NCBI GenBank assembly: GCA_000092065.1
Contig: CP000582.1
Direction: 5' to 3' (one strand)
DNA: 64,000 bases
Source: Ostreococcus lucimarinus
Lineage: Eukaryota
Each line of letters opens with the position of its first letter. Position 1 is the first letter of the stretch. The notes under the pieces were generated by a model, which saw only the letters and a program-made list of their open reading frames with translations, had not been told where the DNA came from and ran no database searches. Positions 7,176 to 30,268 of the stretch are shown here, one piece after another. The position numbers were made by a program, and so were the translations under genes.

Positions 7176-7814
7176 ATGAAACGGCCGCCCCTCAGCACGC
7201 TCTTGGTGAATGTCCTACACAAGACACACCCGTTATTGGCTCTTCTGGAAGTCGGGTACAGACTCGAGAACATTGATTGCGACTTCATTTACGAACACAC
7301 CAGTATTGTATACTGCACGCTTCGCCTCCACACACTCAATGCGGACCTATCAACGCAACGCCTGAAGAAAGCTTCAAGCGTTCTGGCGAATGTGGTTGTT
7401 CTATGTCTCGTCGACTCAGAGGACAGCTTTCAAGCGTTGATCTCGTTAAATAGAGTTTGTGCAGCATCGAATTGTGTTCTTGTTTGTGTGTACACTTTAA
7501 GGGAGGCAATCAGCTACATTCACGCGTTGTGTGCTGCAACAGCCAGGAAGGATACTAGTACTACAATGATCAGTGATGTGTGCTCCATTCTCTCTTCTAT
7601 TCGCGGCATAAATAAACTTGATGTTCATGCTTTGTGCCATAATTACTGTTCATTTTCTGATTTGTGCAAATCGAATGCGCGGAGCTTATCTGATTGCCCT
7701 GGTGTCGGCGCAACGAAAGCACAAATTTTGAGACAAGCTCTCCAGAAGCCCATTATGATCGATCATGATCCCTCACTCAACTCAAGTAGAGAAAAGCCAC
7801 GACTATGTACCTGA
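7176..7814 (+). CDS. ERCC1: ERCC1-like nucleotide-excision-repair protein (central domain plus C-terminal HhH2)
   Basis: Real ATG at 7176. Peptide NVLHKTHPLLALLEVGYRLENIDCDFIY..ASSVLANVVVLCLVDSEDSFQALISLNRVCAASNCVLVCVYTLREAISYIH aligns with the human ERCC1 central domain ([21 protein letters not shown]...LLVQVDVKDPQQAL..ILAWSPEEAGRYLETYK). C-terminal SLSDCPGVGATKAQILRQAL is a helix-hairpin-helix. Confidence 0.8.
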   Translation: MKRPPLSTLLVNVLHKTHPLLALLEVGYRLENIDCDFIYEHTSIVYCTLRLHTLNADLSTQRLKKASSVLANVVVLCLVDSEDSFQALISLNRVCAASNCVLVCVYTLREAISYIHALCAATARKDTSTTMISDVCSILSSIRGINKLDVHALCHNYCSFSDLCKSNARSLSDCPGVGATKAQILRQALQKPIMIDHDPSLNSSREKPRLCT

Positions 7815-9663
7815 CTCCAGATGTGATTGGCACGCCACCGTGCGTCAGATAACTTCTGAAAGCGACGAAATCTCCACACTTTGGTCGAACAATGAACTCA
7901 TGCTCCGGGAAAATCGTACCGCCACCTTTGTATTGTATAGGATCATTTAGAGAAAGAGTTATGGAGAAGTGACCTTGATCGGTGTGTACTGGTAGCTGAC
8001 ACTGTCCATCACTGGCATCGTATTTTACTATGAATGCATCGTGAACCCTAAGATTCGTGTCACCATCGACTCTGAAACGTTCTTGAATGAAGGGACCTAT
8101 GATTTGCCCGAAGATCAAATTCCACTCTCGCAAGACAGAGGGAATTTCGTGTATAGGCAAATCAGTTGTGGCTACAGATTTGTGACGATCTGTGTCCCAG
8201 CCTCCTCTATTTGTTGCATGAGCTTCGGCGGTTTTAATCCAGCTAGAACAAGCTGATGGTGATATTGCACTATTTGTTGTCAAATAAATTTCATCAATTG
8301 AAATAGTCTGAAAAGACACATAGTATTCGGGACATTTTCTACATAAATACGCTGCGTATGAAACATCTTTGTTGAATTGTTTCGATAGCCATAGATGAGC
8401 TTTGTCAACCTTAAAAGCGAGTTGCCAGATACTGTGGGCAAGTTTCCATTTGCCTTGACTAAGGAGCGTCACACCATACGCATGAAGCACATCTGTGTCG
8501 TGTGGATTGTGAAGAAGTGTGCAGTGAAATAAGAGCTCTGCCTCTGAGTATCGCCCCTCTTCCTGCGCTTGAAGAGCCAATTGCTTCATTTGTTCGGGCG
8601 AAACTCTACCAAAATCTTCTCGTTCCCACGAACAACGCGAGCAAACGCAAACTTTACCAAGCTGCCTCAACAGTGAGGCATCTCTGGCACTTACACTAGA
8701 ATGAAGAGGTATAGTTGTCAAAGAGATCGGCTCCATCTGATCAATTTCTCTGAGCGCTATATATCCATATTTCACCTGTGAAAGGGTTGAATTAGCTTCA
8801 ACTTGCACACTTGGATTGCAGCTGTGTTGGAATTTGGTCAGAATTGGTGCCAACAAAAAACCGCAGTAATCTGGCAATTTATTCATAATTGCACAATGGT
8901 ATGAAACTTTCGGATGAATATCAAACTTTGAGCCGTAATGAGCTAATGCAGGATGAGTATCACCATTTTGGGAAGGAGATTGGCGTGTCGGTGGAATTGT
9001 TGTCTTCTCTGTACCAATAGCTACAGCAAACCGCTGAATGGAAGCCACTATATCTGCGTACATCTCAAAGTCTAAAAGCTCGGCAAATCGTGTTTTTGTC
9101 TCTAGATCAAATCTATTATTCAAATGTGCTTTCAATAAGTCCCATGCATCTGCTATTTGATGTTCTAAAATACACGCTCGTCGCACAAACTCATAGAAGT
9201 CCGTACACTCCCAGTTGGCGCGTGCAGCAAGTTCGGACCACTTATGACGCGGATCGAATTGCTCCGACCAACTCAATTGTATTTTTGATACGCTCGTTTC
9301 ACACTCTGACATTGCTGATAAAAGTTGAGCAAGCACCTTAGCAGCAAAAGTGAAACTTTCGCTCGACCTTCGGCAATACTCGTAGAATTCCAACATTGGT
9401 TCACTTCTATTTGAGCATAAAATTGAATGCCAGCCTAATTCCCGCATCGCATGCGGTGCACAATCTCGTCTACAGAAGATATCTCCACAGTCACACCTAA
9501 TGAAACTTGCCTTATCATCGTCGCAGTTACCGAAAAGACGCAAACAGTTTCCGCAAGTTTGCCGCGAACTGTTTTTTTGTAGAAGGAGAAAATTCGTAGA
9601 CGAGTCAACTTTGTGAAAGTCACCTTTGCTCATCTTCCGATGATGTCTGCTGTCCATGTTCAT
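7777..9663 (-). CDS. multidomain protein: MYND zinc finger, SET domain (SMYD-like), TPR-like region and a C-terminal prolyl-4-hydroxylase-type 2OG-Fe(II) oxygenase domain
   Basis: Uninterrupted 628-codon ORF with ATG at 9663. MYND: CGNCLRLFGNC..CDCGDIFCRRDCAPHAMRELGWHSILC. SET signatures: FQHSCNPSVQV (NHSCxPN) and ALREIDQMEPISLTT. P4Hc fold: HTDQGHFSITLSLNDPIQYKGGGTIFPE..VRPKCGDFVAFRSYLTHGGVPITSGVRYIVVAF, i.e. HxD..H..R..Y. The 3′ coding end overlaps the ERCC1 stop by ~38 nt. Confidence 0.65.
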   Translation of the reverse strand: MNMDSRHHRKMSKGDFHKVDSSTNFLLLQKNSSRQTCGNCLRLFGNCDDDKASFIRCDCGDIFCRRDCAPHAMRELGWHSILCSNRSEPMLEFYEYCRRSSESFTFAAKVLAQLLSAMSECETSVSKIQLSWSEQFDPRHKWSELAARANWECTDFYEFVRRACILEHQIADAWDLLKAHLNNRFDLETKTRFAELLDFEMYADIVASIQRFAVAIGTEKTTIPPTRQSPSQNGDTHPALAHYGSKFDIHPKVSYHCAIMNKLPDYCGFLLAPILTKFQHSCNPSVQVEANSTLSQVKYGYIALREIDQMEPISLTTIPLHSSVSARDASLLRQLGKVCVCSRCSWEREDFGRVSPEQMKQLALQAQEEGRYSEAELLFHCTLLHNPHDTDVLHAYGVTLLSQGKWKLAHSIWQLAFKVDKAHLWLSKQFNKDVSYAAYLCRKCPEYYVSFQTISIDEIYLTTNSAISPSACSSWIKTAEAHATNRGGWDTDRHKSVATTDLPIHEIPSVLREWNLIFGQIIGPFIQERFRVDGDTNLRVHDAFIVKYDASDGQCQLPVHTDQGHFSITLSLNDPIQYKGGGTIFPEHEFIVRPKCGDFVAFRSYLTHGGVPITSGVRYIVVAFLYLS

Positions 9664-9832
9664 ACTTCAAACGTTTCTTAGCTGCAAGACGTCACGTGGC
9701 GGCACCTTGCAGCCGCCGCCCCGCTCGGGTCGTCGCAAGTTCACTCGCGCGCATTTATTGTCATACTGTAACGGGTGTTCACTTTATTTAACGCGTTAAG
9801 TATCACTTGCCATGCGATGGTCTAAAAAAAAA

Positions 9833-9905
9833 TGGCGACACCGCGGATCGAACGCGGGACCTTTAGATCTTCAGTCTAACGCTCTCCCAACTGAGCTATG
9901 TCACC
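9833..9905 (-). tRNA. tRNA-Phe (anticodon GAA)
   Basis: Minus-strand sequence GGTGACATAGCTCAGTTGGGAGAGCGTTAGACTGAAGATCTAAAGGTCCCGCGTTCGATCCGCGGTGTCGCCA is near-identical to canonical eukaryotic tRNA-Phe. Cloverleaf folds with anticodon loop CTGAAGA. Followed by T9 (A9 on the plus strand at 9824..9832), a Pol III terminator. Confidence 0.9.
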
Positions 9906-10180
9906 GACTGAGCTCGAGGCATACTCGAGTAAGAGGTCTCCCGCTTTCCTCGCTTTCGCAAGGCGCGTTCCCGTACGACAACGGATTTTCGACTCAATAT
10001 ATTTCCTCTAACGAGTGGCATCATCGGCCGACGGCCGTTGGGAAGATGATGCCGTCAGTACTAAAGAATCTAGTGCTTTAGTGCTTATGTGGAAAACTGC
10101 TTACGATCGTCTGAAGAGACTGCCTCTTCCCGGTAGGGCTTTATTCTTTTTTTTATTCTGGTATTGACCGTCACACTGAT

Positions 10181-13100
10181 TCACGATGAAGTGAGTTCGA
10201 CTGTGTCACGCGAAAATCGCAATTCTTGAAAAACATCACTTGGGTTTTCGTTTCCTCCAACTCCTGCGATGACAAAAGTAAAAGTGAAACGCTTCCGAGC
10301 AGGTGCAAGAAATTCAGAGTGCACACATGGAAACCAACTGCAGTCTCCTCCTAAACCCATTTGGAATGTATCTAAATGTACGTGAATACTGTCACTTCGC
10401 TGAAGATCGTGCTGGTGGTTGGCTCGCGCCAGTTCAGCGTCAGAGAAATTTGACGCATTGAAATTGAAATTCTCCTTGCTCGTGAACAAGCACTTATTTC
10501 CGCTTGCGGAAGATTCTAAAGCCAGCCAGCGCACTTCTTGGCGAGCACCATTATCACTTGGTACTATATATGGAACATGAAGATCGTCAACAGTTGCGGA
10601 GTGGCGACCCAGAAACGCAGAGGACTTTCTATCTAAATAATTTTCATGTGGACCAAGTCCAAGCCACTCAACTTGTTGCATGGTTGCTCGACATTGCATC
10701 AGAACTCCAATTCGAGGAAGAGGTGGTAAATGAGGTGATAAATCGAATGTGCAAGTAACATTTAGATGACCAGACGCCAAGACCGTGTAATGAGAGCAAA
10801 GACGACATACAGTTTTCTTTTGAGCAGTTCGAAGCACAAGCTTACTAGCACAATGAAATCTTCCGAAGTTGTCTACGAAAGTTTCGACAGCTTCTTCGTG
10901 CTCATGCAAAGTATCCAGTCCTGCTTTGGCCCATCGCTCGGCAAAAGAAAAAATCCAACCACCACTGTCATTGTCTGTTGGAGCTCGCCATAAACTCGCT
11001 ATCGGGCCTGATTGAATCAACATTTCGCCGCGAAATTGAAACTTCAATAATCTACCGGAAGCTGCATTGAAAACATATGTGCTGTCTTGCGAAGTGACCC
11101 AAATCGCATCACTCAAATGCTCTATATGAATTGCAGCTTCACTGTTCAAGCTTCCCGGAACAGGGACTTTTTGTTGCGGCAACATAAGCTGACACTTTGC
11201 AATACTCACACCTTCAGGTATCCAAGACTGATGTTTGATGAACGAAGCCGATACGTCAATCCACCATTCTCCAAACACAAACTGCTTCCTCTGGACAAGC
11301 TGCGCGAGAGATGATAGTGATGGGAATAACTGGGACCATTCGTAAGAAGTTTCTGCTCCCGGTTGAATGTGAAGTTTGCTAAATTGGCCTTTCTTAAGTA
11401 TGAAGCCACTATCGAGAATCACGCACCAGTCGAACTTCATACACTCGAGATTTGTAAAGTGATATCGATTTTCAACGATAATCTTATCTCCTTGTGCGCG
11501 TATCATCGTAGGTTGTTGGAGATACTTCACTTCTTCCATGGCAGGATGAGGCGAACGGTCTGGGAAGACCAACCCGTTGATACAAAACTGCTTATCGTTT
11601 GGTGAATCTCCAAAATCTCCGCCATAGCCCCAATGAATTCGCCCATTTGTTGAACAGTTTAATCCTTGATCGATAAGGTCCCATATGAACCCTCCTTGCG
11701 CACTACGGTTGCTCCGAAACACTTCCCAATATTTGGCGAGACCACCATTGCTATTTCCCATGGCATGAGAATACTCACACAAAATGACTGGTCGATCATC
11801 CATCTGTGATGCAAGATCTTGGCAAATCTTAGGTGTTGCATACATGGGACAAATAATATCGGTGCACTTTGTCTTGAAGCCACCACCTTCATATTGAATT
11901 GGACGGGTTTTGTCATTTTGTTTTACCCATGAATACATAGCAAAGTGAGCGCCGCCACAACCTGACTCATTGCCAAGTGACCAAATAATGATAGAGCAAT
12001 GATTTTTGTCGCGTTGTACCATGCGTGATACTCTGGACATGTATGCATTTCTCCATACAGGATCATTTGCTAGATATGGCGTCGAATGTAAGCCAAACTC
12101 AAACCCATGTGTCTCAATATTGGCCTCATCAATAACGTACAATCCGTATTCATCACACAACTCATAAAACCTCGGATGATTCGGATAATGTGAAGTGCGC
12201 ACTGCGTTGAAATTGTTACGTTTCATCAGCAAAATGTCCTCTATCATGAGCTTCTCCGATACCGCCTTTCCCTCTACAGGGCAGTGTTCATGTCTATTTA
12301 CTCCTTGAAAAGTGATTCGTTTTTCGTTCACTAATAGTTGTTTGTTGAAAATCTGGACAGTTCGAAAGCCTACTCTGCACCCTTCGCAGTCTAAACACTC
12401 TCCAGATTCACTCTCCAAAATAATGGCAAGTAGATAAAGCGTTGGACGCTCAGACGACCATTCTGCCACGTTGCTTATGTTGAAGCATACATTTGCATAT
12501 TGCCTAACTTCCTCTATGTTTTTTTCTTGCGTTGTACCAAAATCAGGTGAATAGTGTTGGATAAGAAACTTGTCCGTAGTTCCAGTAGATATTTCACGTA
12601 AGGAAGAATCAAAAAGACGAACACGAAGACGTTTATTGTCATTGTTGAAGTACGCATTGGCGGTGTCACAAATTTCAATCCCAACTCGAAGCTCCCATGT
12701 GCCTGACTGCCAATCACAACACTCTGTCTGCACGGAGTAATCGCAGATATGTGACGCTCTTTTACGATACAAATAAACATCTCTGAATATTCCACTGAGC
12801 CACCATTGATCTTGATCCTCTAAGTAACTACCATCGCACCATCGATAAACGCGGACCACCACCAAGTTAGTCCCGCTTTGCAAAGAATCTGATACGTCGA
12901 ATTCGGCGGTCATTTTGCTATCTTGAGAGTAACCGACAAGTTGACCATTGATCCATATATGAAACGCTGCATCGACCCCCTCAAACACGATGAAAGTCCT
13001 TTCATATGATTCATTCCAGTCCATATCTAGCTGGAAGGTTCGCCTGTACAGGCCCGTCGGATTTGTCGCGTGCACGCAGTTTTCACACAGAACACCAGCA

Positions 13101-13432
13101 TCAATACCTAGCTTAATAGACGTACGCGCGACTGGTGGATGCAATGGAAAAGGATATTGAAAGTTTGTGTAAATAGGTCGATCCCATCCTTTGCATTGCC
13201 AATTTGCAGGGACTGGAATCTCTGCCCAGAACGTGTCTGAGAAGTTTGACAGTGTAAATTCATCAGATATGGCGCGTGGATTCTTCAGAAGCTTGAACTT
13301 CCACGTGCCATTCAGGTTCTGAACGTTGGCTAAATTAATTCTCTCATTCCAGAGGCCTCCACCTTTCCAGAAAGATATACATTCGTCCACAGTTCTGAAA
13401 GAATATAAGGTGCAGTGACTTGGCCTAGGCAT
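10181..13432 (-). CDS. glycoside hydrolase family 2 beta-galactosidase (LacZ-type), intronless
   Basis: ~1083-aa ORF. Diagnostic LacZ blocks present: NLNGTWKF..VPANWQ..WDRPIYTNFQYPFP, WSLGNESGCGGAHFAMYSWVKQNDKTRPIQYEGGG, ILCEYSHAMGNSNGG, FIWDLIDQG. First ATG at 13432 (MPRPSH..). Contains an insertion (RTSIKLGIDAGVLCENCVHA) relative to E. coli LacZ. Confidence 0.9.
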   Translation of the reverse strand: MPRPSHCTLYSFRTVDECISFWKGGGLWNERINLANVQNLNGTWKFKLLKNPRAISDEFTLSNFSDTFWAEIPVPANWQCKGWDRPIYTNFQYPFPLHPPVARTSIKLGIDAGVLCENCVHATNPTGLYRRTFQLDMDWNESYERTFIVFEGVDAAFHIWINGQLVGYSQDSKMTAEFDVSDSLQSGTNLVVVRVYRWCDGSYLEDQDQWWLSGIFRDVYLYRKRASHICDYSVQTECCDWQSGTWELRVGIEICDTANAYFNNDNKRLRVRLFDSSLREISTGTTDKFLIQHYSPDFGTTQEKNIEEVRQYANVCFNISNVAEWSSERPTLYLLAIILESESGECLDCEGCRVGFRTVQIFNKQLLVNEKRITFQGVNRHEHCPVEGKAVSEKLMIEDILLMKRNNFNAVRTSHYPNHPRFYELCDEYGLYVIDEANIETHGFEFGLHSTPYLANDPVWRNAYMSRVSRMVQRDKNHCSIIIWSLGNESGCGGAHFAMYSWVKQNDKTRPIQYEGGGFKTKCTDIICPMYATPKICQDLASQMDDRPVILCEYSHAMGNSNGGLAKYWEVFRSNRSAQGGFIWDLIDQGLNCSTNGRIHWGYGGDFGDSPNDKQFCINGLVFPDRSPHPAMEEVKYLQQPTMIRAQGDKIIVENRYHFTNLECMKFDWCVILDSGFILKKGQFSKLHIQPGAETSYEWSQLFPSLSSLAQLVQRKQFVFGEWWIDVSASFIKHQSWIPEGVSIAKCQLMLPQQKVPVPGSLNSEAAIHIEHLSDAIWVTSQDSTYVFNAASGRLLKFQFRGEMLIQSGPIASLWRAPTDNDSGGWIFSFAERWAKAGLDTLHEHEEAVETFVDNFGRFHCASKLVLRTAQKKTVCRLCSHYTVLASGHLNVTCTFDLSPHLPPLPRIGVLMQCRATMQQVEWLGLGPHENYLDRKSSAFLGRHSATVDDLHVPYIVPSDNGARQEVRWLALESSASGNKCLFTSKENFNFNASNFSDAELARANHQHDLQRSDSIHVHLDTFQMGLGGDCSWFPCVHSEFLAPARKRFTFTFVIAGVGGNENPSDVFQELRFSRDTVELTSS

Positions 13433-14134
13433 ATTTAGCACACATATAGAAACAGTCGACACGACCTACCTTCGATCACGACCAACAATAGATGCGTTCT
13501 CCCAGTCGGCGATTTCGGCCGACGATAAAGGCTCGTCTACCTATTTTTCGTGTGATTGCATTTCAATTAGTTGTATGCGACACGTACTGAAACCAGTTGC
13601 TCCTGAACGCAACTGTCGAAAAAGGTTGCGTAGGAACACTCCCCGATTCTGAGTATAATTGATAGCACGCGCGATGTGCGAAAAGTCCAGCTTTCGTAAA
13701 AGTTGATTATTCCCTGGAGACTAAAGCAACGAAACACGAAGCTTGCAAAGAGGTTCCAAAAGTACATTTTGGAATGCGCGTAGCGCTACGACAGCTGTTT
13801 GCTATGACCGCTGTTTCCGTCGAAGGATTACGTGTAGGTCGATTTCAAGACTTATGATATGTCGTACGCGTGACGCGTTCGCGAACACGCGTCGTCACTT
13901 GTGGGGGAGTGTTGCAGAGGGTACGACGCACTACCGAACTGGGCCTGACAACGCTTCTTTAAGTCTCCCAGGGTGCTGGAAAAATTTATATATCGCACCT
14001 TTAGAGAGTACCTACACACATGACGAGTCATGAACCGTGGATATATACGTATTTTACACCGTTTAGTGCCATCTACAATAGAGTATTCCTACCTTGGTGA
14101 AAAGTAGTAGTAGTATGTTGGTATGATACCTTTG

Positions 14135-14163
14135 CTGAAGGTCCTTCAGTGAAGGACCTTCAG
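14135..14163. repeat. perfect 29-nt palindrome (14-bp arms around a central G)
   Basis: CTGAAGGTCCTTCA-G-TGAAGGACCTTCAG; each arm is itself near-palindromic. Sits in a ~1.6-kb stretch (13.46–15.1 kb) with no recognisable gene. Confidence 0.6.
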
Positions 14164-15097
14164 ACAAAGTTAGTTGAATACGGAGAAGACCGGCTCGCGG
14201 CGGACAGAATACACGACGTGCAACGAGAGCTTCGATACTGTCTTGTGATAGCAACCCAACTGAAATCAAGCGGAAGTATCGTCTGATTACGCAGCGATGC
14301 CCCGAACCGAAACTGGCAACGTTCGTCTTCTTGCACGTGTCCGACGGGGCGAGTCAGGGTCACCAGCGTACTTTTGATATCAGGGTGCTCCACAGCACAT
14401 CATAAGCATCAAATTCAAAATTAGTTGCTACCCAATTGAATCCTCTGTGGTCATCTACGATGCCGACTGAAGACCGCGGTGGACTTTCTGGCCCAACAGT
14501 ACTCAAGTTTCTTCGCACGACCAGTCTAGTAGCTTTTAAGTTGTGGGCACCAGGTATAGAAAGTATTCCAGTCGAAACACTATCTTTCTCAGACTCAACA
14601 TAGGACCATTCAAGTTAGTGCTGTGCAAGGACCTACTGCGCTCAGTACAAATGGCGCTCGTGAAAACACGCTCAGTGCAAAAAAATATATTATGTGACAA
14701 CTCAAGTTGTACTACTCCAGTACCCCTCTTAAGCAGAGTGTTTCACGGTGTATCAACTAGCATAATATGGAGGCTTCAATTAAATGTTGAGGTATGACAT
14801 TGGTACAGTCAATTCCTCCTTCATTTGGATTCAGATTACTCTTTTAGCTCCTCGGTTTATGTGTTCGCTTTTTACTCCCTGGAACATTCAGAACCTTGCA
14901 GTTCTACAATCTCCTTTTCAAGTTGACGTGCGGGTACGTCAAAACAGCAGTCTGGTGCGTTATTAACACTCTTCTTTCGTCATGGTTTGAACGATTCTTA
15001 CATACATAGGGATATACGAACCGCGAAATGCATATCGGAGTTGAAGGTGCCTCGTTGCTTTTCCCATACTATATTCAATATTCATGACAAGATTTAG

Positions 15098-16648
15098 GAA
15101 TGCTGGGACTCTCGCCATAGCAAGGCCGCAAATTTGACAAAAAGGACATTGTTAAAATTATCAGGTTTCTACTTGAAGGTACTTTCACTTTGCAAGATGC
15201 ACTTGGTGGCTAAAAGTAGCCTAGGTAGCGCAAGTTTTTGCCACGAAAGCAGATCTACTACCAAAAGAATACGTTCACGCGCTCAGCTGCGTTCTTGATG
15301 ATTGCGCTCCGATGCCCGTCGGTGAGGTCAAGAGAGTGGTAGAGCGAGAATTAGGCGCTCCAATATCGAAGATTTTTCATCGATTTGACTTGCAACCGAT
15401 CGGCTCAGCCACTATTGCTCAAGTCCACCGCGCAGTCTTGCAAGACGGTCGACATGTCGCTGTAAAAGTACAAAATACTCGAAACAAAAAGCTGATGCGA
15501 TTTGATTTACGCAACATGCTTTTTGTTTCTCGGTTACTGGATCGACTTCGAGTATATCTTCCGTTCGATCATACAAGCATTTTAGTAGAATATTCCACAC
15601 AGGTACGCACAATACACCTGCAAGTATTAATGTTCAACTTAACGTCACCCAGGTACCTCTGGAATTTGATTTTAATAGGGAGAGACGCATGTTGAGCGTC
15701 CTAGGTCGTCGTATTAGCTCTAATCATAAAGTTCGTGTTCCAGCACCGATCGATGGACTCTGCACTGCTCAAGTGTTGACTATGACTTTGATTGAAGGCA
15801 AACCTTTAGCAACTTTTACGTCAGTCAGCTCAAAGAAAAATGTGGAGGGCAATCTTGATTATCTTAGAGACAATTTGAGGGAATTACTAGCAAGCTTTGG
15901 ATTTCAAATCTTGAACTTAGGTGTTTTTCACAGTGATCCCCATCCGGGCAATATTTTACTAAGAGATTTTCGAGACATTGCGCTGATAGATTTTGGTCAG
16001 GTGAAAATATTATCTGATGAAACACGAGTGCTGTTTGCGCATCTTGTCGTATCATTGTACGAAGAGTCGGATCAATTGTACGCAATATTAAAAACACTCA
16101 AAGTTGAGTTTACAATAAATGATCCAAAATTGATAAGGACCATAGCTTCAATTCTGTTTGATACACGCATGGATATACCCGAAGCACTCGTATCCCCACT
16201 AGATTCTGAATTTCCAGCGGAACTACGCAGTGTGAGAATAAATGTGATACCCACGGAGGTTTTCATGATTATTCGTATCATTGCTATATTTCGAGGCATC
16301 TTTTCAGCTTTGGATATCGATTTACATGCGAGGAAACTTTGGGTCAGCAGTGCACGACAAACAATTCTCGATTCCGAGCGTGTATATAACTTCAATATTC
16401 TAGCGACACCAAGAAATGAAGTGAACATCGTTGATCAGCTGAAGCATTTTAGTGCTTGGCTTGCCCTTCATGGCTTGCCTCACCAGAGGGAGTATATGAT
16501 GGCTTTTGCGAAGTTACATGTGTTTTGTATCAAAGATTTACGGAAACTTGCCGCAGAGAACGAGCGATCAGCACTTGATGCCGTATTCGCAAACTTCTCG
16601 GAACAGGATAGAAGCCGTTGTCTAAAACTTTGCTATGAGCATTCATGA
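15098..16648 (+). CDS. ABC1/ADCK (UbiB-family) atypical protein kinase; 5′ exons upstream of 15098 unresolved
   Basis: Exons read ..KAANLTKRTLLKLSGFYLK / VAQVFATKADLLPKEYVHALSCVLDDCAPMPVGEVKRVVERELGAPISKIFHRFDLQPIGSATIAQVHRAVLQDGRHVAVKVQ..YSTQ / VPLEFDFNRERRML.. The signature FHSDPHPGNILL is present. Introns at ~15179..15223 and 15603..15652 (GTACGC donor). Stop at 16646..16648. Confidence 0.8.
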
Positions 16649-23994: not shown

Positions 23995-24097
23995 CGATCC
24001 AAGGAAGTTAAAAGAACGATGCGACGGGTCTGAAAATTAATCTCTCGTTGAATAGTTTCATTATAAACTCAAGATTGTAAATTTAATGTGATGCGTC

Positions 24098-25616
24098 TCA
24101 GTCCGTTTCGTAACCGAACACAGATGAAAAGACATCAATAACTCGAGAGCCTTCATCAATAGTCGCCATTGGATCCTTACGGAGCCTGTGACGCAGGCAG
24201 AGCGACACTACCGAATAAACGTCTTCGTCGGTCACTACCTTGGAACCTCGGAAGGCTGCAGCTGCACGTGATGCGCGAGTCGTCACGAGATCACCACGGA
24301 GGCCATCGACGTCAAGCTCAGCGCAGACTTGGGAAATTTTCAGTCGGATTTCCATGGGAACCTCAACCTCCGGTAACAAGGCGCGCGCCCGAGTCACCTG
24401 GTCTATGATTTCGTCCTGCTTTGCCTTGTATCCCGCGCGGAACGACTTCGGATCCGTGTCAAATGCAGTCCGCTCTTCGACAACCTTGACCCGCTCTTCT
24501 GGCAGTTTCACAGTCTTGATTTGTGCATGCATGCCGAAGCGATCTAAAAGCTGGGGTCGCAGTTCGCCTTCTTCTGGGTTACCGGAACCAATGAGGATGA
24601 AACGAGCCGGGTGACATATACTGATTCCCTCGCGCTCCACTGTATTCCAGCCCGACGCTGCCGAATCAAGCAAAACATCAACAAGGTGGTCGTCTAGTAA
24701 GTTGACTTCATCAACATACAGTATTCCGCGATTCGCCTTGGCGAGGAGACCAGGTTCGAAGGCTTTCGTCCCCTCAGTTAACGCTTTCTCGATATCGATC
24801 GTCCCGCATACGCGATCCTCAGTTGCACCCAAGGGTAAGTCAACCATATTGATAGGAACGAAGGAAGTCTCGAGCGGTTGCTTGGCCCGATATGCCGATA
24901 AAACGTCGGGAGACATCAAGTTCGGATCCGTAGGGCTACTCATAAACGGATCATCTTTCACGATTTCGATGTATGGAAGTAAATCAGTCAACGAACGGAC
25001 TGTCGTCGACTTCCCAGTCCCACGATCGCCCATCACCATGATGCCGCCGATATTCGGATCGATGATGTTCATCAGCGCTGCGAACTTCATCTCTTCTTGG
25101 CCAATGATAGCGCAGAAGGGATATACAGGTCTAGCGGTACTATCCTCCACCTCGGAATCGTTGGAAACTACGTCAAGAGTGAGTAAGTCAATATTCTATG
25201 CCGACACTACAGGGTCTCTTACCGGCTTTAGGGCGAAGTGTCTGCTGCACGCGGCAGCCACGCGTGCCTTGAATGTTCCTGAAAACAAATTGAGAAAAAT
25301 TTCGAAGATCAGTTCGAAACGGGGCGTACTTATATCCCCGGCTCCATCTACAGAGCGCTGTACCGTAGAAGAAAACCGTCAGTCGCCCGAGTTCTGTCGA
25401 TAAGGTTGCGAGCGATGTGTTCGCGTGTCCGCTTGTGCGAAAAGAACGCAATGGGAAAGCCTCACGCGTGACGATCTAACGAACAAAAAAATGAGGATGC
25501 TTGAGTGAAACAAATATCGCGTCAAACTCGCACGTGACGAGAAAACTTCGCGTGCAGGCACGTGTCTCACCGTTTACGTGTTGATGACTGTATGAAACAG
25601 CGGCGGACATCGACAT
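24098..25616 (-). CDS. CHLI: magnesium chelatase subunit I (ChlI), nuclear-encoded with N-terminal transit peptide; 3–4 exons
   Basis: Mature part reads RPVYPFCAIIGQEEMKFAALMNIIDPNIGGIMVMGDRGTGKSTTVRSLTDLLP.., a textbook ChlI AAA+ module, in a 350-codon exon. Upstream exons encode an S/T/R-rich presequence (MSMSAAVSYSHQH / ..RSFRTSGHANTSLATLS..QQTLRPKA / VSNDSEVEDSTARPVYPF). ATG at 25616..25614. Presequence exon boundaries are uncertain. Confidence 0.9.
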
Positions 25617-26101
25617 GTTGAACTCGCTCGTCTGTTTAAATAATATCCGAATAATTATTCACGATGGTACACGATCTAATCACCCGTGGGCACAACGTGT
25701 GCGCGTGCGTCAGTGCGGCAAGTACAAGTATCGAATGTGACGTGAGCTAAGCTGAGGAAGCGGATAACGATGAAAACATTCGGTTCTATATCATGGTGTA
25801 TTAATGATGTTTCATAAACGCGCACATACTTAACAGCGTGTATTGCATATATCAGTATCTCCACGGTTTATTGTGGGTCTGGCGCGTGCGTTGACGTCTT
25901 CGAGGAAACGACAGCTTTCGCTGAACTTGCAACGCGCGTCAAAACGCTCACGCGAATACTCAGCCACAGTTCCTTCGTCCGTCGTTTGACGCGACAGCTG
26001 TTTCTCAGGTTCAACATCCTGCACTTCTTGCATCAACTCAACAAGGTTGGCTGCATACTCGCCGAACTCTTCGCGACAGGATCCCCGAGTTATTTTTCAC
26101 A
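25617..26101. promoter_or_regulatory. 485-bp head-to-head intergenic region shared by CHLI (minus) and ClpP (plus); putative bidirectional promoter
   Basis: Inferred from divergent start codons at 25616 and 26102. No motif was verified. Confidence 0.35.
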
Positions 26102-26996
26102 ATGCAAGCTCGATCTTTATACCGTTTCAAGACGCAGCACTCTAGGTACGCTATAGGTGTAGTTTTCGTCGTTCGAGCATACGGTCGTGAGCGGTGCACC
26201 CCTTTTGTTGGCAAATTAAAGGCGGCACACGCGTGAAACCCTACAGGGGAAGTACTAACGGCTCTTTTTTGTTTTCGCTCCCAGTGGCGTTGGATCATCA
26301 TCTGCGCGCATAGATCGCTCAAAGCACCAAGGCTTACAGACTCGAGTTAAAGCAGGGCTTTATGTCAGCAACCAACAGGGCAAGGGTCCATCGCCTATTG
26401 TGCTGGAAAGGTTTCAAAGCGTTGCCAGCCAACTCATGTCGCAGCGTATTATTCGACTCGGCGGTGCAGTAGATGACGATAGCTGCAACTTAATCGTAGC
26501 TCAACTTCTTTGGTTAGATGCTGCAGATCCCACGAAAGACATTACACTGTACGTAAATTCACCTGGGGGCTCCGTTACAGCAGGAATGGCGGTGTTTGAT
26601 ACAATGCGACATATTCGTCCCAACGTTTCTACGGTTTGTGTGGGTCTTGCGGCATCTATGGGTGCGTTTCTTCTTGCTTCTGGTCATCCGGGCAAAAGAT
26701 ACAGCCTTCCGAACAGTAGGATCATGATTCACCAACCTCTTGGTGGTGCACAAGGTCAAGCCGCAGATATTGAGATACAAGCTAACGAAATCATGCATCA
26801 TAAGTCAACGCTGAACGGCTACCTCGCTGAATTTACCAAGAAACCACTTGAGACGGTGATGGAAGATACCGATCGAGACTTTTTCATGTCGGCTAAGGAA
26901 GCCGTTGAGTATGGCCTTATAGACGCTATCATTGAGCACCCCACAGACGTGGCTGTCAAGGCTTCGGGCATACCTATGTATGCGTCTGGACTGTAA
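26102..26996 (+). CDS. CLPP: ATP-dependent Clp protease proteolytic subunit ClpP, nuclear-encoded organellar precursor (2 exons)
   Basis: Exon 1 (26102..26145) reads [14 protein letters not shown]. Intron 26146..26284 runs GTACGC..TACTAAC..CCCAG. Exon 2 (26285..26996) reads ..[121 protein letters not shown].. The catalytic Ser is in AASMG; a catalytic-triad His is present; the Asp was not checked. 252 aa in total. Confidence 0.85.
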
Positions 26997-27497
26997 GACG
27001 ACTGCTTCGTCTCGTTTTCCATTGTAAAAGTGACTCTGGTTATAATGTATGAGTCGGCGTGTAGAAGAAAAGCGATTATCCGACGACACGTCATTTTTCA
27101 TGTTGTTCCAGCGAGAGGTAAAAATACATCGCACCAGAACGCACCTCGTCTATGTTGGACGTTCCTTAGCGACAATTTGTTATGAACACCAACCAACGAA
27201 TCCTCAGATTTGCAAACATCTCGCGGCATGCGACACGACAACCTCTACACTCAAGGTTTGCGTGGCAATCAGCCTCACTTGGGCTAGAGTTCCAGTCTCG
27301 AACGGTAAGGTTGGTGTACACTACGGCCGAAGCTTGGCGAGTTTTAGGGAGCTTCAGATAGGTCGTAGACTTCATGTGATGATTGTTTTGAAATTTAATC
27401 TTCTGTCAATATTAAAAGCCGTGAGAGAGGGACTCGACGGGCTCTTAAAGCTGCACATGGCGCTCGCTCATTGTCCGAGCTCATAAGGACTATCAGC

Positions 27498-27825
27498 TTA
27501 CAACGAGAGCCCACTGTCATCGTCCTTGCCACCAGCTACAATGGAAGCATCTTGCTTACCAGCGATAAAGTAGAGGCCAAAGATGGCGAGCGGAACGGTC
27601 GCCAAAATGATGCCCAAGGCGCCGTCGTTGATGCCGAGAGGCAAGCCAGTACCGTCACCGTTCAGTCGATCGTCAACCTACGGCGTTCAAGTTGAAGGAT
27701 AATACGTGTGAAAGGAATCATATCAATACTTACGATCGCGAGCGCCGGAAGTACATTAACCATAGAAGAGAGCGCAAAGGAGCCAGCAACTCGTTTACCC
27801 ATTTCTTGCGGTGCAGTCGCGCTCA
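27498..27825 (-). CDS. PSBW: photosystem II reaction-centre W protein (PsbW) precursor; at least 2 exons, with a possible further 5′ exon
   Basis: Exon at 27734..27825 reads MSATAPQEMGKRVAGSFALSSMVNVLPALAI, a thylakoid-transfer signal ending in the AxA motif. Intron 27678..27733 has donor GTAAGT. Exon at 27498..27677 reads VDDRLNGDGTGLPLGINDGALGIILATVPLAIFGLYFIAGKQDASIVAGGKDDDSGLSL*. This matches mature PsbW ([41 protein letters not shown]). A stromal-targeting exon probably lies upstream of 27825 (candidate in 27880..28106). Confidence 0.8.
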
Positions 27826-28685
27826 TAGTGACCACTGTGCGGCCAAGTCAGTATGGTAGATGTCAAAAAGTCCGCGCGAAGAAAAGTACGAAACACACAA
27901 CGTATGCAAATGGATATTTTTCGACGCACCTGATCGCTTGGTAGTGGCATTTTGCTTCTTGACTGTCGGTGGGAAAACGACTTGTCAGTTCTGGTTATAG
28001 CGCGCTTAACAACGCGATCGTATCTTTTCGCAGACAGCGCACACGTACCAGATCGTCGCTGCACGACGTTGCACGGCGTGGAAATCACAGACGAGATAGT
28101 AAACATGTTATTCGTGAACTTTTACACACGATGGCTTGCGCGGGTACGAAGTGGTGTCGTCGGCGATCACCAGCGTCGTATCGCGTACAGATATGCGATT
28201 ATGTTTATGAGTCTCTTTAATTTTTATTACCTAATAGCCTCATCAGTATATGAACCGTAACGGCTCTTTGTTGTTGCGAACGTACGCGTATATTGTACCG
28301 AATTTCTCATAGACGACCGATAGCTCCTGAGCTCTCAGATCTCGTCTAGATCGAGCGCTATCCTATGTTTGATCCTTAGACAAGCGTCGAGAACGGTGAA
28401 CATCACTGTACGCGTCGGCGCCTCCTGTCAAAGTGAAATCATGTTCACATTGAATACTCGAACTACATGCGTTGAACGAAGGTAAGATTGGTGCATCGCC
28501 CCTGGAAACCCAGCCTCTTTTTTGTACTCGATGTTCGTAGCGCGTGACGACGGAACTCACACTCGACTCGAAACCGCACGCGTGCGGTCATGCAATCCAG
28601 AAACGGCAAAATGGTTAGATCCCGAATTATTTTTAAACAACGATGAGGGAGATTTTTGGCGCAGTGTTTGCTTGCTGCCTTCGTG

Positions 28686-30071
28686 ATGCACGAAAAGACT
28701 AACGTTATCCTCCCCGAGAACAGCCTGAGCGCGAAGTTGCACGAACCTAAGCTGTCGCGTTCGCGCACGACGGCGCGTGTGACGCCACGAAATGTGGTCA
28801 CAGCGTCTGGTGCCCCTTTAACTGATCGGAAATTGCGTGTCGCTGTCATCGGTGGTGGTCCTGCCGGTGCTTGCGCCGCTGAAACTCTGGCGAAGGGTGG
28901 ATGCGAGACCTTCCTGATCGAGCGCAAGATGGACAACTGCAAGCCCTGTGGTGGCGCCATCCCGCTGTGCATGGTTGGTGAATTCGACTTGCCGGAAGAA
29001 ATCATCGACCGTAAGGTCACTAAAATGAAGATGATCTCGCCTTCGAACCGTGCCGTGGATGTCGGACAAACTCTGAACGACAAGGAGTACATCGGTATGT
29101 GCCGTCGAGAAGTCATGGATGACTTCCTGCGCAAACGCGCGAAGAGCCTAGGCGCGAACCTTGTCAACGGTCTTTTCATGAAAATCGAAGATCCCGGCCA
29201 AGGAAACGGCCCTATCATGGTCCAGTACAACGATTACGAAGAAGAAAGCAAGACTGGCGTTCCCAAAACGCTTGAGGTTGACGTCGTCATCGGCGCGGAT
29301 GGTGCCAACTCTCGCGTTGCCAAGTGCATCGACGCAGGTGAATATGACTACGCCATCGCCTTCCAGGAACGCATTAAGATTCCGGATGCAAAGATGGAGT
29401 ACTATAAAGACCTTGCTGAAATGTACGTAGGCGACGACGTGTCGCCAGATTTTTACGGTTGGGTTTTCCCGAAGTACGATCACGTTGCGGTTGGGACTGG
29501 TACGGTTGTGAACAAGACTGCCATTAAGCAATATCAGACTGCCATGCGCAACAGAGCCGAGGAAAAGTGCGAGGGTGGTAAAATTATCCGTGTGGAGGCG
29601 CACCCGATCCCGGAACATCCGAGACCGAACAGAGTGAAAGGTCGTGTCGCGTTGGTTGGAGATGCAGCAGGCTACGTCACGAAGTGCAGTGGCGAAGGTA
29701 TTTACTTCGCGGCCAAGTCAGGTCGTATGGCAGCCGAGGCCGTTGTCGAACAATCGATGAATGGAACGAAGGAAATTGGCGAGACCGATCTTCGTGTTTA
29801 CCTTGACAAGTGGGATCGCAAGTACTGGGCGACGTACAAGGTTCTTGACATTTTGCAGAAAGTCTTCTACCGCTCTAATCCGGCGCGTGAAGCCTTCGTT
29901 GAAATGTGCGCGGATGAGTACGTGCAGAAGATGACTTTCGATTCCTACCTGTACAAAACTGTTGTGCCGGGCAATCCGTTGGACGATGCGAAGCTCCTCG
30001 CCAATACTGTTGCCTCACTGATGCGCTCGAACGCTCTTCGCATCGCGTCAAAAAGTGGCATCGCCGCCTAA
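28686..30071 (+). CDS. CHLP: geranylgeranyl diphosphate reductase (ChlP), single exon with ~45-aa transit peptide
   Basis: RVAVIGGGPAGACAAETLAKGGCETFLIERKMDNCKPCGGAIPLCMVGEFDLP is the canonical ChlP FAD-binding N-terminus. Homology continues across the full length (..ALVGDAAGYVTKCSGEGIYFAAKSG..). First ATG in the ORF at 28686 (MHEKT..). Confidence 0.9.
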   Translation: MHEKTNVILPENSLSAKLHEPKLSRSRTTARVTPRNVVTASGAPLTDRKLRVAVIGGGPAGACAAETLAKGGCETFLIERKMDNCKPCGGAIPLCMVGEFDLPEEIIDRKVTKMKMISPSNRAVDVGQTLNDKEYIGMCRREVMDDFLRKRAKSLGANLVNGLFMKIEDPGQGNGPIMVQYNDYEEESKTGVPKTLEVDVVIGADGANSRVAKCIDAGEYDYAIAFQERIKIPDAKMEYYKDLAEMYVGDDVSPDFYGWVFPKYDHVAVGTGTVVNKTAIKQYQTAMRNRAEEKCEGGKIIRVEAHPIPEHPRPNRVKGRVALVGDAAGYVTKCSGEGIYFAAKSGRMAAEAVVEQSMNGTKEIGETDLRVYLDKWDRKYWATYKVLDILQKVFYRSNPAREAFVEMCADEYVQKMTFDSYLYKTVVPGNPLDDAKLLANTVASLMRSNALRIASKSGIAA

Positions 30072-30268
30072 GATGCGATCAGTTTAATTCTTTACGATCA
30101 ATTTCGAAGCAAATTAGTAGCGCTACTTTACAAAACAACTGTTATTGTTATCCACGATCTACGTAAGACACTGTTCGCCTCGCGATGCTTGATATAGGCA
30201 ACTAACACACACTGACGTGTTGCGCTTTCTTACACTCACACCCCACCGAATTGCCGTCAATCGTCTGC

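What the first reader, a model, noticed from the sequence alone, without database searches (positions are those of the whole stretch)
10181..13462. Intronless LacZ-type GH2 beta-galactosidase in an algal nuclear context – candidate horizontal acquisition
This ~1083-aa single-exon gene has all E. coli LacZ-like catalytic blocks (WSLGNESG..YEGGG; ILCEYSHAMGNS). LacZ-type GH2 enzymes are mainly bacterial; a few eukaryotes carry them, for example yeast LAC4. It is the largest gene here and has no intron. It lies between a tRNA-Phe and a gene-poor palindrome-containing gap. It also carries a lineage-specific insertion after the NPTG motif region.
Basis: partly seen in the sequence, partly recalled or inferred. 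Interest (0 to 1): 0.5.

Follow-up and report, generated by a model that had tools for sequence, protein, structure and literature searches.

The report
Known spliced algal LacZ-type beta-galactosidase gene
This is the already annotated LacZ-like beta-galactosidase gene of the green picoalga Ostreococcus lucimarinus; it has two small introns and relatives in related algae and land plants, so it is an ordinary inherited gene rather than a recent bacterial import.

Summary
The long ORF at 10181-13462 (minus strand) is real and encodes a complete five-domain LacZ-type GH2 beta-galactosidase. All 16 LacZ active-site residues checked are conserved, and the predicted fold matches E. coli LacZ. The window is Ostreococcus lucimarinus CCE9901, in the low-GC part of chromosome 2. 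The gene is RefSeq XP_001416385.1, "Beta-galactosidase, putative".

The gene is not intronless. It has three exons and encodes 1164 aa. Six independent transcript contigs lack exactly the 47-nt and 45-nt GT-AG introns.

Orthologues with the same intron positions occur in O. tauri, Bathycoccus and other marine picoeukaryotes, always in low-GC regions. Land plants carry the same family (AT3G54440), and the Selaginella gene has at least 8 introns. GC3 and codon usage match the neighbouring genes. No prokaryotic sequence found exceeds about 43% identity.

Distance trees group algae with plants against 106 prokaryotic sequences, with 57-89% bootstrap support. Gamma-proteobacteria are the nearest prokaryotes. 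An ancient transfer from gamma-proteobacteria into green plants was already proposed for this family by Yue et al. 2012.

This is an ordinary, known gene. One side observation: Bathycoccus prasinos carries two haplotype-specific versions only 45% identical.

The parts
10181..13424 (-). Exon 3 of the GH2 beta-galactosidase gene. It runs to the TGA stop at 10183-10181 and encodes aa 84 (part) to 1164, that is all five LacZ domains.
   Evidence: ORF. Pfam domains. The spliced translation is identical to XP_001416385.1. Transcripts are colinear with it.
13425..13469 (-). Intron 2: 45 nt, GT..AG, phase 2, inside an Arg codon.
   Evidence: Sequence. It is missing from six transcript contigs. The same site and phase occur in O. 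tauri-like L002, Bathycoccus haplotype B L003 and the P0018-lineage locus L091.
13470..13540 (-). Exon 2. It encodes VDEPLSSAEIADWENASIVGRDR(R), which includes the conserved LacZ N-terminal DWEN motif.
   Evidence: tblastn of the annotated N-terminus. The motif aligns with bacteria and plants.
13541..13587 (-). Intron 1: 47 nt, GT..AG, 36% GC. The boundary is ambiguous by 3 nt because GTA is repeated at both ends.
   Evidence: An intron at the same position occurs in O. tauri-like, Bathycoccus A and B and P0018-lineage loci.
13588..13767 (-). Exon 1, starting at the ATG at 13767. It encodes a 60-aa hydrophobic N-terminal extension found only in the algal clade, with a conserved W-x-[FW]-R motif. 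Its function is unknown.
   Evidence: It is conserved in O. tauri, Bathycoccus and other algal-clade proteins. There is an in-frame stop upstream of the ATG.
13768..13904 (-). 5' UTR. Transcript contigs begin at 13880-13904.
13064..13126 (-). Clade-specific 21-aa loop insertion (RTSIKLGIDAGVLCENCVHAT). It lies immediately before NPTG, whose Asn corresponds to active-site N102 of E. coli LacZ. It is poorly conserved and predicted flexible.
   Evidence: Alignments. pLDDT is below 50 for exon-3 residues 101-112. Coordinates.
11960..11983 (-). WSLGNESG block. It holds the acid/base Glu (E570, equivalent to E. coli E461).
11750..11785 (-). ILCEYSHAMGNS block. It holds the nucleophile Glu (E634, equivalent to E. 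coli E537).
9833..9905 (-). tRNA-Phe(GAA), 276 nt downstream of the stop codon on the same strand. It lies inside the region covered by four of the six transcript contigs. It is a neighbour, not part of the enzyme gene.
   Evidence: ARAGORN. Transcript ends. The same linkage occurs in the O. tauri-like contig L002.

Best explanation
This is the expressed, spliced nuclear gene for a LacZ-type (CAZy GH2, LacZ subfamily) retaining beta-galactosidase of Ostreococcus lucimarinus CCE9901. It lies in the low-GC part of chromosome 2, the 'big outlier chromosome' region that is a candidate mating-type locus.

Shown:
- The gene has three exons and two small GT-AG introns.
- mRNA exists.
- All five domains are present, and the predicted fold matches E. 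coli LacZ.
- All active-site residues checked are conserved.
- The coding sequence is under constraint.
- Orthologues in Ostreococcus, Bathycoccus and other picoalgae share the intron positions.
- Homologues exist throughout land plants.

Inferred:
- The enzyme hydrolyses terminal beta-D-galactosides by double displacement. E634 would be the nucleophile and E570 the acid/base, with Mg2+ held by E521/H523/E570 and a monovalent cation by D289/F697/N700.
- The gene reached this alga by vertical descent from at least the common ancestor of these picoalgae, and probably of all green plants.
- Any bacterial origin dates to before that ancestor.

Speculative, from my own knowledge:
- The physiological substrate is unknown. 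It could be beta-galactosylglycerol released from chloroplast galactolipids.
- The roles of the N-terminal extension and of the loop next to the active site are unknown.
For: Identity:
- 1081/1081 residues match XP_001416385.1.
- The spliced CDS translates to exactly that protein.
- Its longest contig, 895,087 bp, fits a whole chromosome.

Expression and splicing:
- Six contigs from independent sequencing runs cover 13904..9525 and lack exactly 47+45 nt.

Enzyme:
- Pfam domains and PDB sequence matches.
- Model pLDDT is 89.6. The TM-score to E. coli LacZ 6cvm is 0.86 normalised to the query and 0.91 to the target.
- 16 of 16 active-site residues are conserved.

Constraint:
- Against a 99.7%-identical environmental contig, there are 3 differences in the 3.2-kb coding region and 7 in about 360 nt downstream.

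Host-typical features:
- GC3 is 0.40, against 0.37-0.48 for most neighbours. RSCU correlates at r=0.70 with neighbours, against -0.03 for E. coli lacZ.
- The introns are 45 and 47 nt. The published size for this chromosome region is 40-65 bp, AT-rich (PMC3491373).
- The neighbouring genes are eukaryotic housekeeping genes: MCM, HDAC, BOP1, PP2C, Timeless, DEAD helicase and ABC1.

Vertical descent:
- O. tauri is 61% identical and Bathycoccus 46% and 43%.
- Intron 2 has the same site and phase in four lineages. Intron 1 is shared by five.
- tRNA-Phe lies downstream in both Ostreococcus species.
- An ABC1 kinase gene lies nearby in both O. lucimarinus and Bathycoccus haplotype A.
- All these loci are low in GC: 38-50%.

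Tree:
- The algal clade and land plants are each monophyletic and together separate from 106 prokaryotic sequences.
Against: - No enzyme assay exists, so activity and substrate are inferred.
- The algae-plus-plants grouping has only moderate support: 57-89% bootstrap depending on the distance correction, from neighbour-joining only with no likelihood analysis.
- Shared indels between the algal clade and plants are few and short.
- Plant and algal intron positions do not coincide at the one site examined.
- Core chlorophytes and streptophyte algae were not sampled by name.
- That the window is chromosome 2 rests on contig length, low GC and the literature, not on a direct alignment to the chromosome record.
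Confidence: 0.9

Rival explanations
1. Ancient single transfer. A gamma-proteobacterium-like donor gave a lacZ-type gene to the common ancestor of green plants, after which it was inherited vertically and gained introns. This concerns the deep origin of the family and is compatible with the best explanation.
For: - Yue et al. 2012 list 'Glycoside hydrolase family 2, donor gamma-proteobacteria, AT3G54440' among acquired families (PMC3493653).
- In my tree the nearest named prokaryotic group to the algae-plus-plants clade is gamma-proteobacteria: Vibrio, Agarivorans, Enterobacteriaceae and E. coli.
- No red-algal, glaucophyte, animal or other named non-green eukaryote appeared in the 120 best hits. 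Many of those hits are unnamed.
- Yeast LAC4 is much more distant: 458 bits against 665 for E. coli LacZ.
Against: - Support for the grouping is moderate.
- The direction of transfer and the rooting are not established.
- Identity to any prokaryote found is only 34-43%, so no donor can be named.
- Loss from other eukaryotes cannot be excluded.
Confidence: 0.55
2. Two independent acquisitions. The marine picoalgal clade and land plants each obtained the gene separately from related bacteria.
For: - In 11-43% of bootstrap replicates the algae-plus-plants split is not recovered.
- In the smaller tree, midpoint rooting put plants with bacteria.
- O. lucimarinus is about equally distant from plants and from Vibrio-type sequences.
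- The intron positions compared differ.
Against: - The full-data trees under three distance corrections all recover algae plus plants against 106 prokaryotic sequences.
- The split separating all bacteria from both green groups had 99% support in the first tree.
- Two small insertions are shared by both green groups and are absent from at least 85% of the prokaryotic sequences.
Confidence: 0.12
3. Recent horizontal transfer from a bacterium into the Ostreococcus lucimarinus lineage.
For: - The long ORF looks bacterial.
- LacZ-type enzymes are mostly bacterial.
- A tRNA gene lies next to it.
Against: - Orthologues occur in O. tauri, Bathycoccus and other picoalgae with shared intron sites.
- The gene has spliceosomal introns, confirmed by transcripts.
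- Codon usage is typical of the host region.
- The best prokaryotic identity found is about 43%.
- The tRNA-Phe linkage is itself conserved in O. tauri.
Confidence: 0.02
4. Bacterial contamination, an assembly artefact, or a decaying pseudogene.
For: None beyond the bacterial-looking ORF.
Against: - The gene is embedded among eukaryotic genes with the same composition.
- The same arrangement occurs in an independent environmental contig at 99.7% identity.
- Spliced mRNA was found in six sequencing runs.
- The reading frame is intact, the catalytic residues are conserved and the coding region is constrained.
Confidence: 0.01

Closest known systems
Ostreococcus lucimarinus CCE9901 XP_001416385.1 / ABO94678.1 'Beta-galactosidase, putative' (UniRef A4RT31)
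   Same: It is the same gene. The spliced translation of the window is identical over all 1164 aa.
   Different: Nothing.
E. coli LacZ beta-galactosidase (GH2, LacZ subfamily; PDB 1dp0, 6cvm)
   Same: It has the same five-domain architecture and fold, with TM-scores of 0.86/0.91. All 16 active-site, Mg2+ and Na+ residues checked are identical, and the DWEN N-terminal motif is present.
   Different: Identity is about 36-39%. The algal protein has a 60-aa N-terminal extension encoded by exon 1 and a 21-aa flexible loop inserted just before the residue equivalent to N102. It also has several smaller clade-specific insertions. The gene is nuclear, spliced and not in an operon.
Land-plant GH2 family represented by Arabidopsis AT3G54440 (for example Selaginella LOC9662790, Glycine max)
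   Same: It has the same domain set at 37-41% identity. It groups with the algal clade against prokaryotes in distance trees. The catalytic residues are conserved.
   Different: Plants lack the algal N-terminal extension and the loop before NPTG. They have their own 29-aa N-terminal insertion and many more introns, at least 8 in Selaginella and none at the algal intron-2 site.
Orthologues in O. tauri (XP_022839487.1) and Bathycoccus prasinos (K8EN09, and CAL6303989.1 and related entries)
   Same: They share the N-terminal extension, the loop insertion, the intron positions and a location in a low-GC region.
   Different: Identity is only 61%, 43% and 46%. The Bathycoccus haplotype-A version lacks intron 2.
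   Same: It is a GH2 LacZ-type beta-galactosidase in a eukaryote.
   Different: It is much more distant than bacterial LacZ: 458 bits and two separate matched stretches, against 665 bits for E. coli. It is not a specific relative.

Membership tests
GH2 LacZ-type beta-galactosidase | Five-domain architecture: sugar-binding N domain, Ig-like domain, TIM-barrel catalytic domain, LacZ domain 4 and the Bgal_small_N C domain | tested here: met
   All Pfam models score above their curated cut-offs. The predicted structure superposes on E. coli LacZ over about 1077 columns.
GH2 LacZ-type beta-galactosidase | Catalytic Glu pair (E461 acid/base, E537 nucleophile) plus the Mg2+, Na+ and substrate-binding residues | tested here: met
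   16 of 16 residues are identical to E. coli. All 16 are also identical in every one of the 35 algal-clade and 18 plant sequences that has a residue at the site; two sites have alignment gaps in 2 and 5 algal sequences.
GH2 LacZ-type beta-galactosidase | Measured beta-galactosidase activity | not testable with these tools
   This needs a recombinant enzyme assay.
Recently horizontally acquired gene | Absent from sister species | tested here: not met
   It is present in O. tauri, in Bathycoccus (two versions) and in other picoeukaryote lineages.
Recently horizontally acquired gene | Composition or codon usage unlike the surrounding genome | tested here: not met
   GC3 is 0.40 and the RSCU correlation is r=0.70, the second highest of 22 ORFs in the window.
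Recently horizontally acquired gene | Nested within a donor clade at high identity | tested here: not met
   The best prokaryotic identity found is about 43%. The gene sits in a eukaryotic clade with 100% bootstrap in the first tree.
Recently horizontally acquired gene | No spliceosomal introns | tested here: not met
   It has two GT-AG introns that are removed in transcripts.
Gene of the low-GC outlier region (candidate mating-type region) of Mamiellales chromosome 2/14 | Sits in a region whose GC is about 9-17% below the genome average | tested here: met
   The window is 42-52% GC, against 60% for the genome as stated in PMC8557840. Orthologous loci are 38-50% GC.
Gene of the low-GC outlier region (candidate mating-type region) of Mamiellales chromosome 2/14 | Small (40-65 bp) AT-rich introns | tested here: met
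   The introns are 47 and 45 nt at 36% and 42% GC. The definition comes from PMC3491373.
Gene of the low-GC outlier region (candidate mating-type region) of Mamiellales chromosome 2/14 | Two deeply diverged haplotype-specific alleles within one species | tested here: inconclusive
   This is met for Bathycoccus prasinos. It has two versions 45% identical, one on a 669-kb contig and the other on 730-798-kb contigs. The second version carries 8 accessions, which matches the 8 haplotype-B strains reported. It was not tested for O. lucimarinus, because the opposite mating-type sequence was not identified.

The most novel reading that the evidence does not exclude
The LacZ-type gene may be an ancient resident of the Mamiellales candidate mating-type region, kept as two very old allelic lineages. 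In Bathycoccus prasinos the two haplotype versions are only 45% identical, which is as far apart as different genera. The versions differ in intron 2. All share a clade-specific N-terminal extension and a flexible loop beside the active site. If the two lineages also exist in Ostreococcus, the enzyme could have haplotype-specific properties, for example in remodelling cell-surface or storage galactosides. This gene-level pattern is not described in the papers I read. The general phenomenon of diverged gene pairs in this region is published (PMC8557840, PMC13242883).
Probability: 0.45. Interest if true: 0.35.

Novelty: already known. Interest (0 to 1): 0.12.

Why it matters
It matters little as a discovery. 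The gene is annotated in RefSeq, and CAZy-based work already recognises green-plant members of the LacZ subfamily (PMC12243196). A bacterial origin of the green-plant family was proposed in 2012.

The check is useful mainly as a caution. In the low-GC outlier region of these tiny algae, 45-nt in-frame introns make multi-exon genes look like bacterial single ORFs. A long ORF with a nearby ATG is therefore not evidence for an intronless, transferred gene.

The side observation may interest people who study the candidate sex chromosome of Mamiellales. It is that two versions of this enzyme, only 45% identical, segregate with the two chromosome-14 haplotypes of Bathycoccus prasinos.

Tried and rejected
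1. An exact look-up of the 1083-aa ORF product found nothing, because that product is not a real protein. The 1093-aa ORF and the 1164-aa spliced protein were both found.

2. I looked for this gene in the mating-type paper's supplements. None are held as text, so I could not tell whether the family is one of its 23 'core' families.

3. One member of the algal clade is labelled '[bacterium]' (MDA9766426.1), which could have meant a bacterial sister group. I rejected this because the cluster's contigs carry RRM, HSP70, CAF1 and proteasome genes, so the genome bin is probably mis-assigned.

4. I tested whether land plants share the algal intron-2 site, which would have been strong evidence for common descent. 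They do not: the first Selaginella intron lies about 14 codons downstream.

5. Shared-indel analysis between the algal clade and plants gave only two short shared insertions, which is weak evidence.

6. Midpoint rooting of the first tree put plants with bacteria. With only three groups this says nothing, so I added 80 named prokaryotic loci and E. coli LacZ as outgroup diversity.

7. No likelihood tree program was available, so only neighbour-joining with three distance corrections was run.

8. A literature search for this gene in Ostreococcus found nothing specific.

9. I did not establish the species of the other algal-clade sequences, such as the P0012/P0017 group and the P0018 group. I did not establish which Bathycoccus haplotype corresponds to the O. 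lucimarinus version either. The signals conflict: the ABC1 neighbour matches haplotype A, while intron 2 and slightly higher identity match haplotype B.


Full report
OBSERVATION

The ORF reported at 10181-13462 on the minus strand exists. It is 1093 aa from a GTG and 1083 aa from the ATG at 13432, and it is the longest ORF in the window.

Pfam finds the complete LacZ domain set. This comprises Glyco_hydro_2_N, Glyco_hydro_2, the TIM-barrel Glyco_hydro_2_C at E 3e-103, LacZ_4 and Bgal_small_N at E 5e-68. The best sequence matches among solved structures are E. coli LacZ-type beta-galactosidases at E about 1e-199. Kluyveromyces LAC4 is far weaker.

The tRNA-Phe(GAA) at 9833-9905 is real. A 43-nt near-palindrome lies at 14128-14170 in the upstream gap.

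WHAT GENOME AND GENE THIS IS

The translated ORF is 100% identical (1081/1081) to Ostreococcus lucimarinus CCE9901 XP_001416385.1, "Beta-galactosidase, putative". That protein is 1164 aa and sits on an 895,087-bp contig.

The window is 42-52% GC, whereas the Ostreococcus genome is about 60% GC. A sharp 9-17% drop in GC defines the outlier region of the big outlier chromosome, which is a candidate mating-type locus (PMC8557840; PMC3491373).

The other ORFs in the window are ordinary eukaryotic housekeeping genes. They include MCM, a histone deacetylase, BOP1, PP2C, Timeless, a DEAD-box helicase, an Ofd1-type oxygenase and an ABC1 kinase.

THE GENE IS NOT INTRONLESS

The annotated protein has 83 more N-terminal residues than the ORF. 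These residues map upstream in two further exons. The full structure on the minus strand is:

- exon 1, 13767-13588
- intron 1, 13587-13541 (47 nt, GT..AG)
- exon 2, 13540-13470
- intron 2, 13469-13425 (45 nt, GT..AG)
- exon 3, 13424-10181

Joined, these exons translate to exactly the RefSeq protein.

Intron 2 is in frame with the ORF. Exon 2 encodes the DWEN motif that begins LacZ proteins in bacteria and plants.

Transcripts give direct proof. Six contigs of 3.9-4.3 kb from independent public sequencing runs carry an uninterrupted ORF for the 1164-aa protein. They align to the window from 13880-13904 down to 9525-9871, and exactly 47+45 nt are missing.

The intron sizes fit the 40-65 bp AT-rich introns described as typical of this chromosome region in all Mamiellales (PMC3491373).

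IS IT A FUNCTIONAL ENZYME?

- All 16 E. coli LacZ residues checked are identical in the algal protein: N102, D201, H357, H391, E416, H418, E461, M502, Y503, E537, H540, W568, F601, N604, G794 and W999.
- An AlphaFold model of exon 3 has mean pLDDT 89.6 and pTM 0.91.
- The model superposes on E. coli LacZ 6cvm with TM-scores of 0.86 (query-normalised) and 0.91 (target-normalised).
- Against a 99.7%-identical environmental contig, the 3.2-kb coding region has 3 differences, 2 of them synonymous. About 360 nt of downstream spacer has 7.

I infer a retaining beta-galactosidase that works as LacZ does. The natural substrate is unknown.

THE 'LINEAGE-SPECIFIC INSERTION'

The insertion is 21 aa long (13064-13126). 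It lies immediately before NPTG, not after it. It is present, with variable length and sequence, in every member of the algal clade and absent from plants and prokaryotes.

The model predicts it to be flexible, with pLDDT below 50. It abuts the residue equivalent to active-site N102.

The exon-1-encoded N-terminal extension, with a conserved W-x-[FW]-R motif, is likewise specific to the algal clade.

RELATIVES AND DESCENT

The closest proteins are from marine eukaryotes:

- O. tauri XP_022839487.1, 61% identical
- several environmental Ostreococcus-like sequences, 51-61%
- Bathycoccus prasinos, 46% and 43%
- further picoeukaryote lineages, 40-46%

Contigs of the unnamed members carry eukaryotic genes such as RRM, HSP70, CAF1 and proteasome subunits.

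Gene structure is conserved across these lineages:

- Intron 1 sits at the same place in O. lucimarinus, O. tauri-like, both Bathycoccus versions and the P0018 lineage.
- Intron 2 splits the same Arg codon in the same phase in four of these five. It is absent from Bathycoccus haplotype A.

tRNA-Phe lies just downstream of the gene in the O. tauri-like contig too. An ABC1 kinase gene lies nearby in both O. lucimarinus and Bathycoccus haplotype A. All these loci are low in GC, at 38-50%.

Codon usage is host-typical. GC3 is 0.40, against 0.37-0.48 for most neighbours. RSCU correlates at r=0.70 with the pooled neighbours, against -0.03 for E. coli lacZ.

DEEPER ORIGIN

Land plants from liverwort and Selaginella to angiosperms have the same family at 37-41% identity. 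The best prokaryotic sequences, such as Vibrio, Agarivorans, SAR324 and Anaerolineae, are at about 40-43%.

A scan of one genome per prokaryotic species returned 80 named loci at 34-40% identity. None was closer.

In neighbour-joining trees the algal clade, land plants and the sampled bacteria each form a group, with 100%, 100% and 99% bootstrap.

With 106 prokaryotic sequences including E. coli LacZ, the split of algae plus plants against all prokaryotes is recovered under three distance corrections. Bootstrap support is 57-89%. Gamma-proteobacteria are the nearest named prokaryotic group.

This matches a published claim. Yue et al. 2012 list [quoted passage not shown] among gene families that green plants acquired after their split from red algae (PMC3493653). 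A 2025 subdivision of GH2 also notes green-plant members of the LacZ subfamily GH2_10 (PMC12243196).

The Selaginella gene has at least 8 introns, though none at the algal intron-2 site.

Support for a single green clade is moderate, not strong. Independent acquisition by algae and plants is not excluded.

VERDICT

The ORF, the motifs, the tRNA and the palindrome are real. 'Intronless', 'about 1083 aa' and the placement of the insertion are wrong.

The interpretation as a candidate horizontal acquisition is refuted as a recent or lineage-specific event. Only an ancient, already published transfer into the green-plant ancestor remains plausible.

The gene is already known and annotated, so interest is low.

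SIDE OBSERVATION

Bathycoccus prasinos has two versions of this gene that are only 45% identical.

- One version (K8EN09, reference strain) lies on a 669-kb contig.
- The other carries 8 accessions on contigs of 730-798 kb.

This matches the 16 haplotype-A and 8 haplotype-B strains, and the chromosome-14 sizes, reported for the two outlier-chromosome haplotypes (PMC13242883).

The enzyme gene therefore appears to be one of the deeply diverged haplotype-specific gene pairs of the candidate mating-type region. I did not establish whether O. lucimarinus has a second version.

Noticed in passing
L090 6001-9216 (Bathycoccus haplotype-A type) and L003/L004 8001-11054 (haplotype-B type): Bathycoccus prasinos has two versions of this GH2 gene that are only 45% identical. 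They lie on chromosome-14 assemblies of different length classes (669 kb against 730-798 kb, the latter with 8 accessions). This matches the two published outlier-chromosome haplotypes. Their flanking genes differ completely, and only the B type has intron 2.
   Followed up: partly
window 9525-10180 (tRNA-Phe at 9833-9905; next gene's ATG at 9663): Four of six transcript contigs of the beta-galactosidase gene run on through the same-strand tRNA-Phe gene. They continue past the start codon of the next gene (7777-9663), so the tRNA lies inside a long 3' UTR or read-through transcript. The same gene-tRNA-Phe linkage is present in the O. tauri-like contig (L002 4300-4372).
   Followed up: partly
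window 13588-13767 (exon 1): A 60-aa hydrophobic N-terminal extension with a conserved W-x-[FW]-R motif is shared by Ostreococcus, Bathycoccus and other picoalgal versions. It is absent from plant and bacterial LacZ proteins. It could be a membrane anchor or a targeting signal; its function is unknown.
   Followed up: partly
window 13977-14170: A near-palindrome with 21-nt arms lies at 14128-14170. Next to it is an insertion/deletion difference between the window and a 99.7%-identical environmental contig: L001 has 57 nt where the window has 172 nt.
   Followed up: no
L087, L088, L089 (cluster of P0012 / P0017): One member of this protein cluster is deposited as 'DUF4981 domain-containing protein [bacterium]' (MDA9766426.1). 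The contigs nevertheless carry eukaryotic genes (RRM, HSP70, CAF1, proteasome) at about 45% GC. It is probably a mis-binned picoeukaryote sequence in a bacterial genome bin.
   Followed up: partly
window 15312-16648: The ABC1 kinase gene upstream is split over two overlapping reading frames near 15690, presumably by another small intron of the outlier-region type. An ABC1 gene also lies near the GH2 gene in Bathycoccus haplotype A (L090 1-1355).
   Followed up: no
window 24000-30100: This stretch has higher GC (0.49-0.52) than the rest of the window. It has long overlapping antisense ORF pairs (24098-25150 / 24702-25403 and 28463-29230 / 28656-30071). The geranylgeranyl-reductase-like ORF has GC3 0.62 and codon usage unlike its neighbours.
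   Followed up: no
window 7777-9663: This 628-aa ORF immediately downstream has no Pfam match at default thresholds, although it has Cys/His-rich and oxygenase-like stretches.
   Followed up: no
L002 640-660: The O. tauri-like environmental contig has one base fewer than the O. tauri reference protein implies in exon 2 (tggaaaat where tgggaaaat is expected). This shifts the frame across the DWEN motif. It is probably an assembly error or a homopolymer variant.
   Followed up: no
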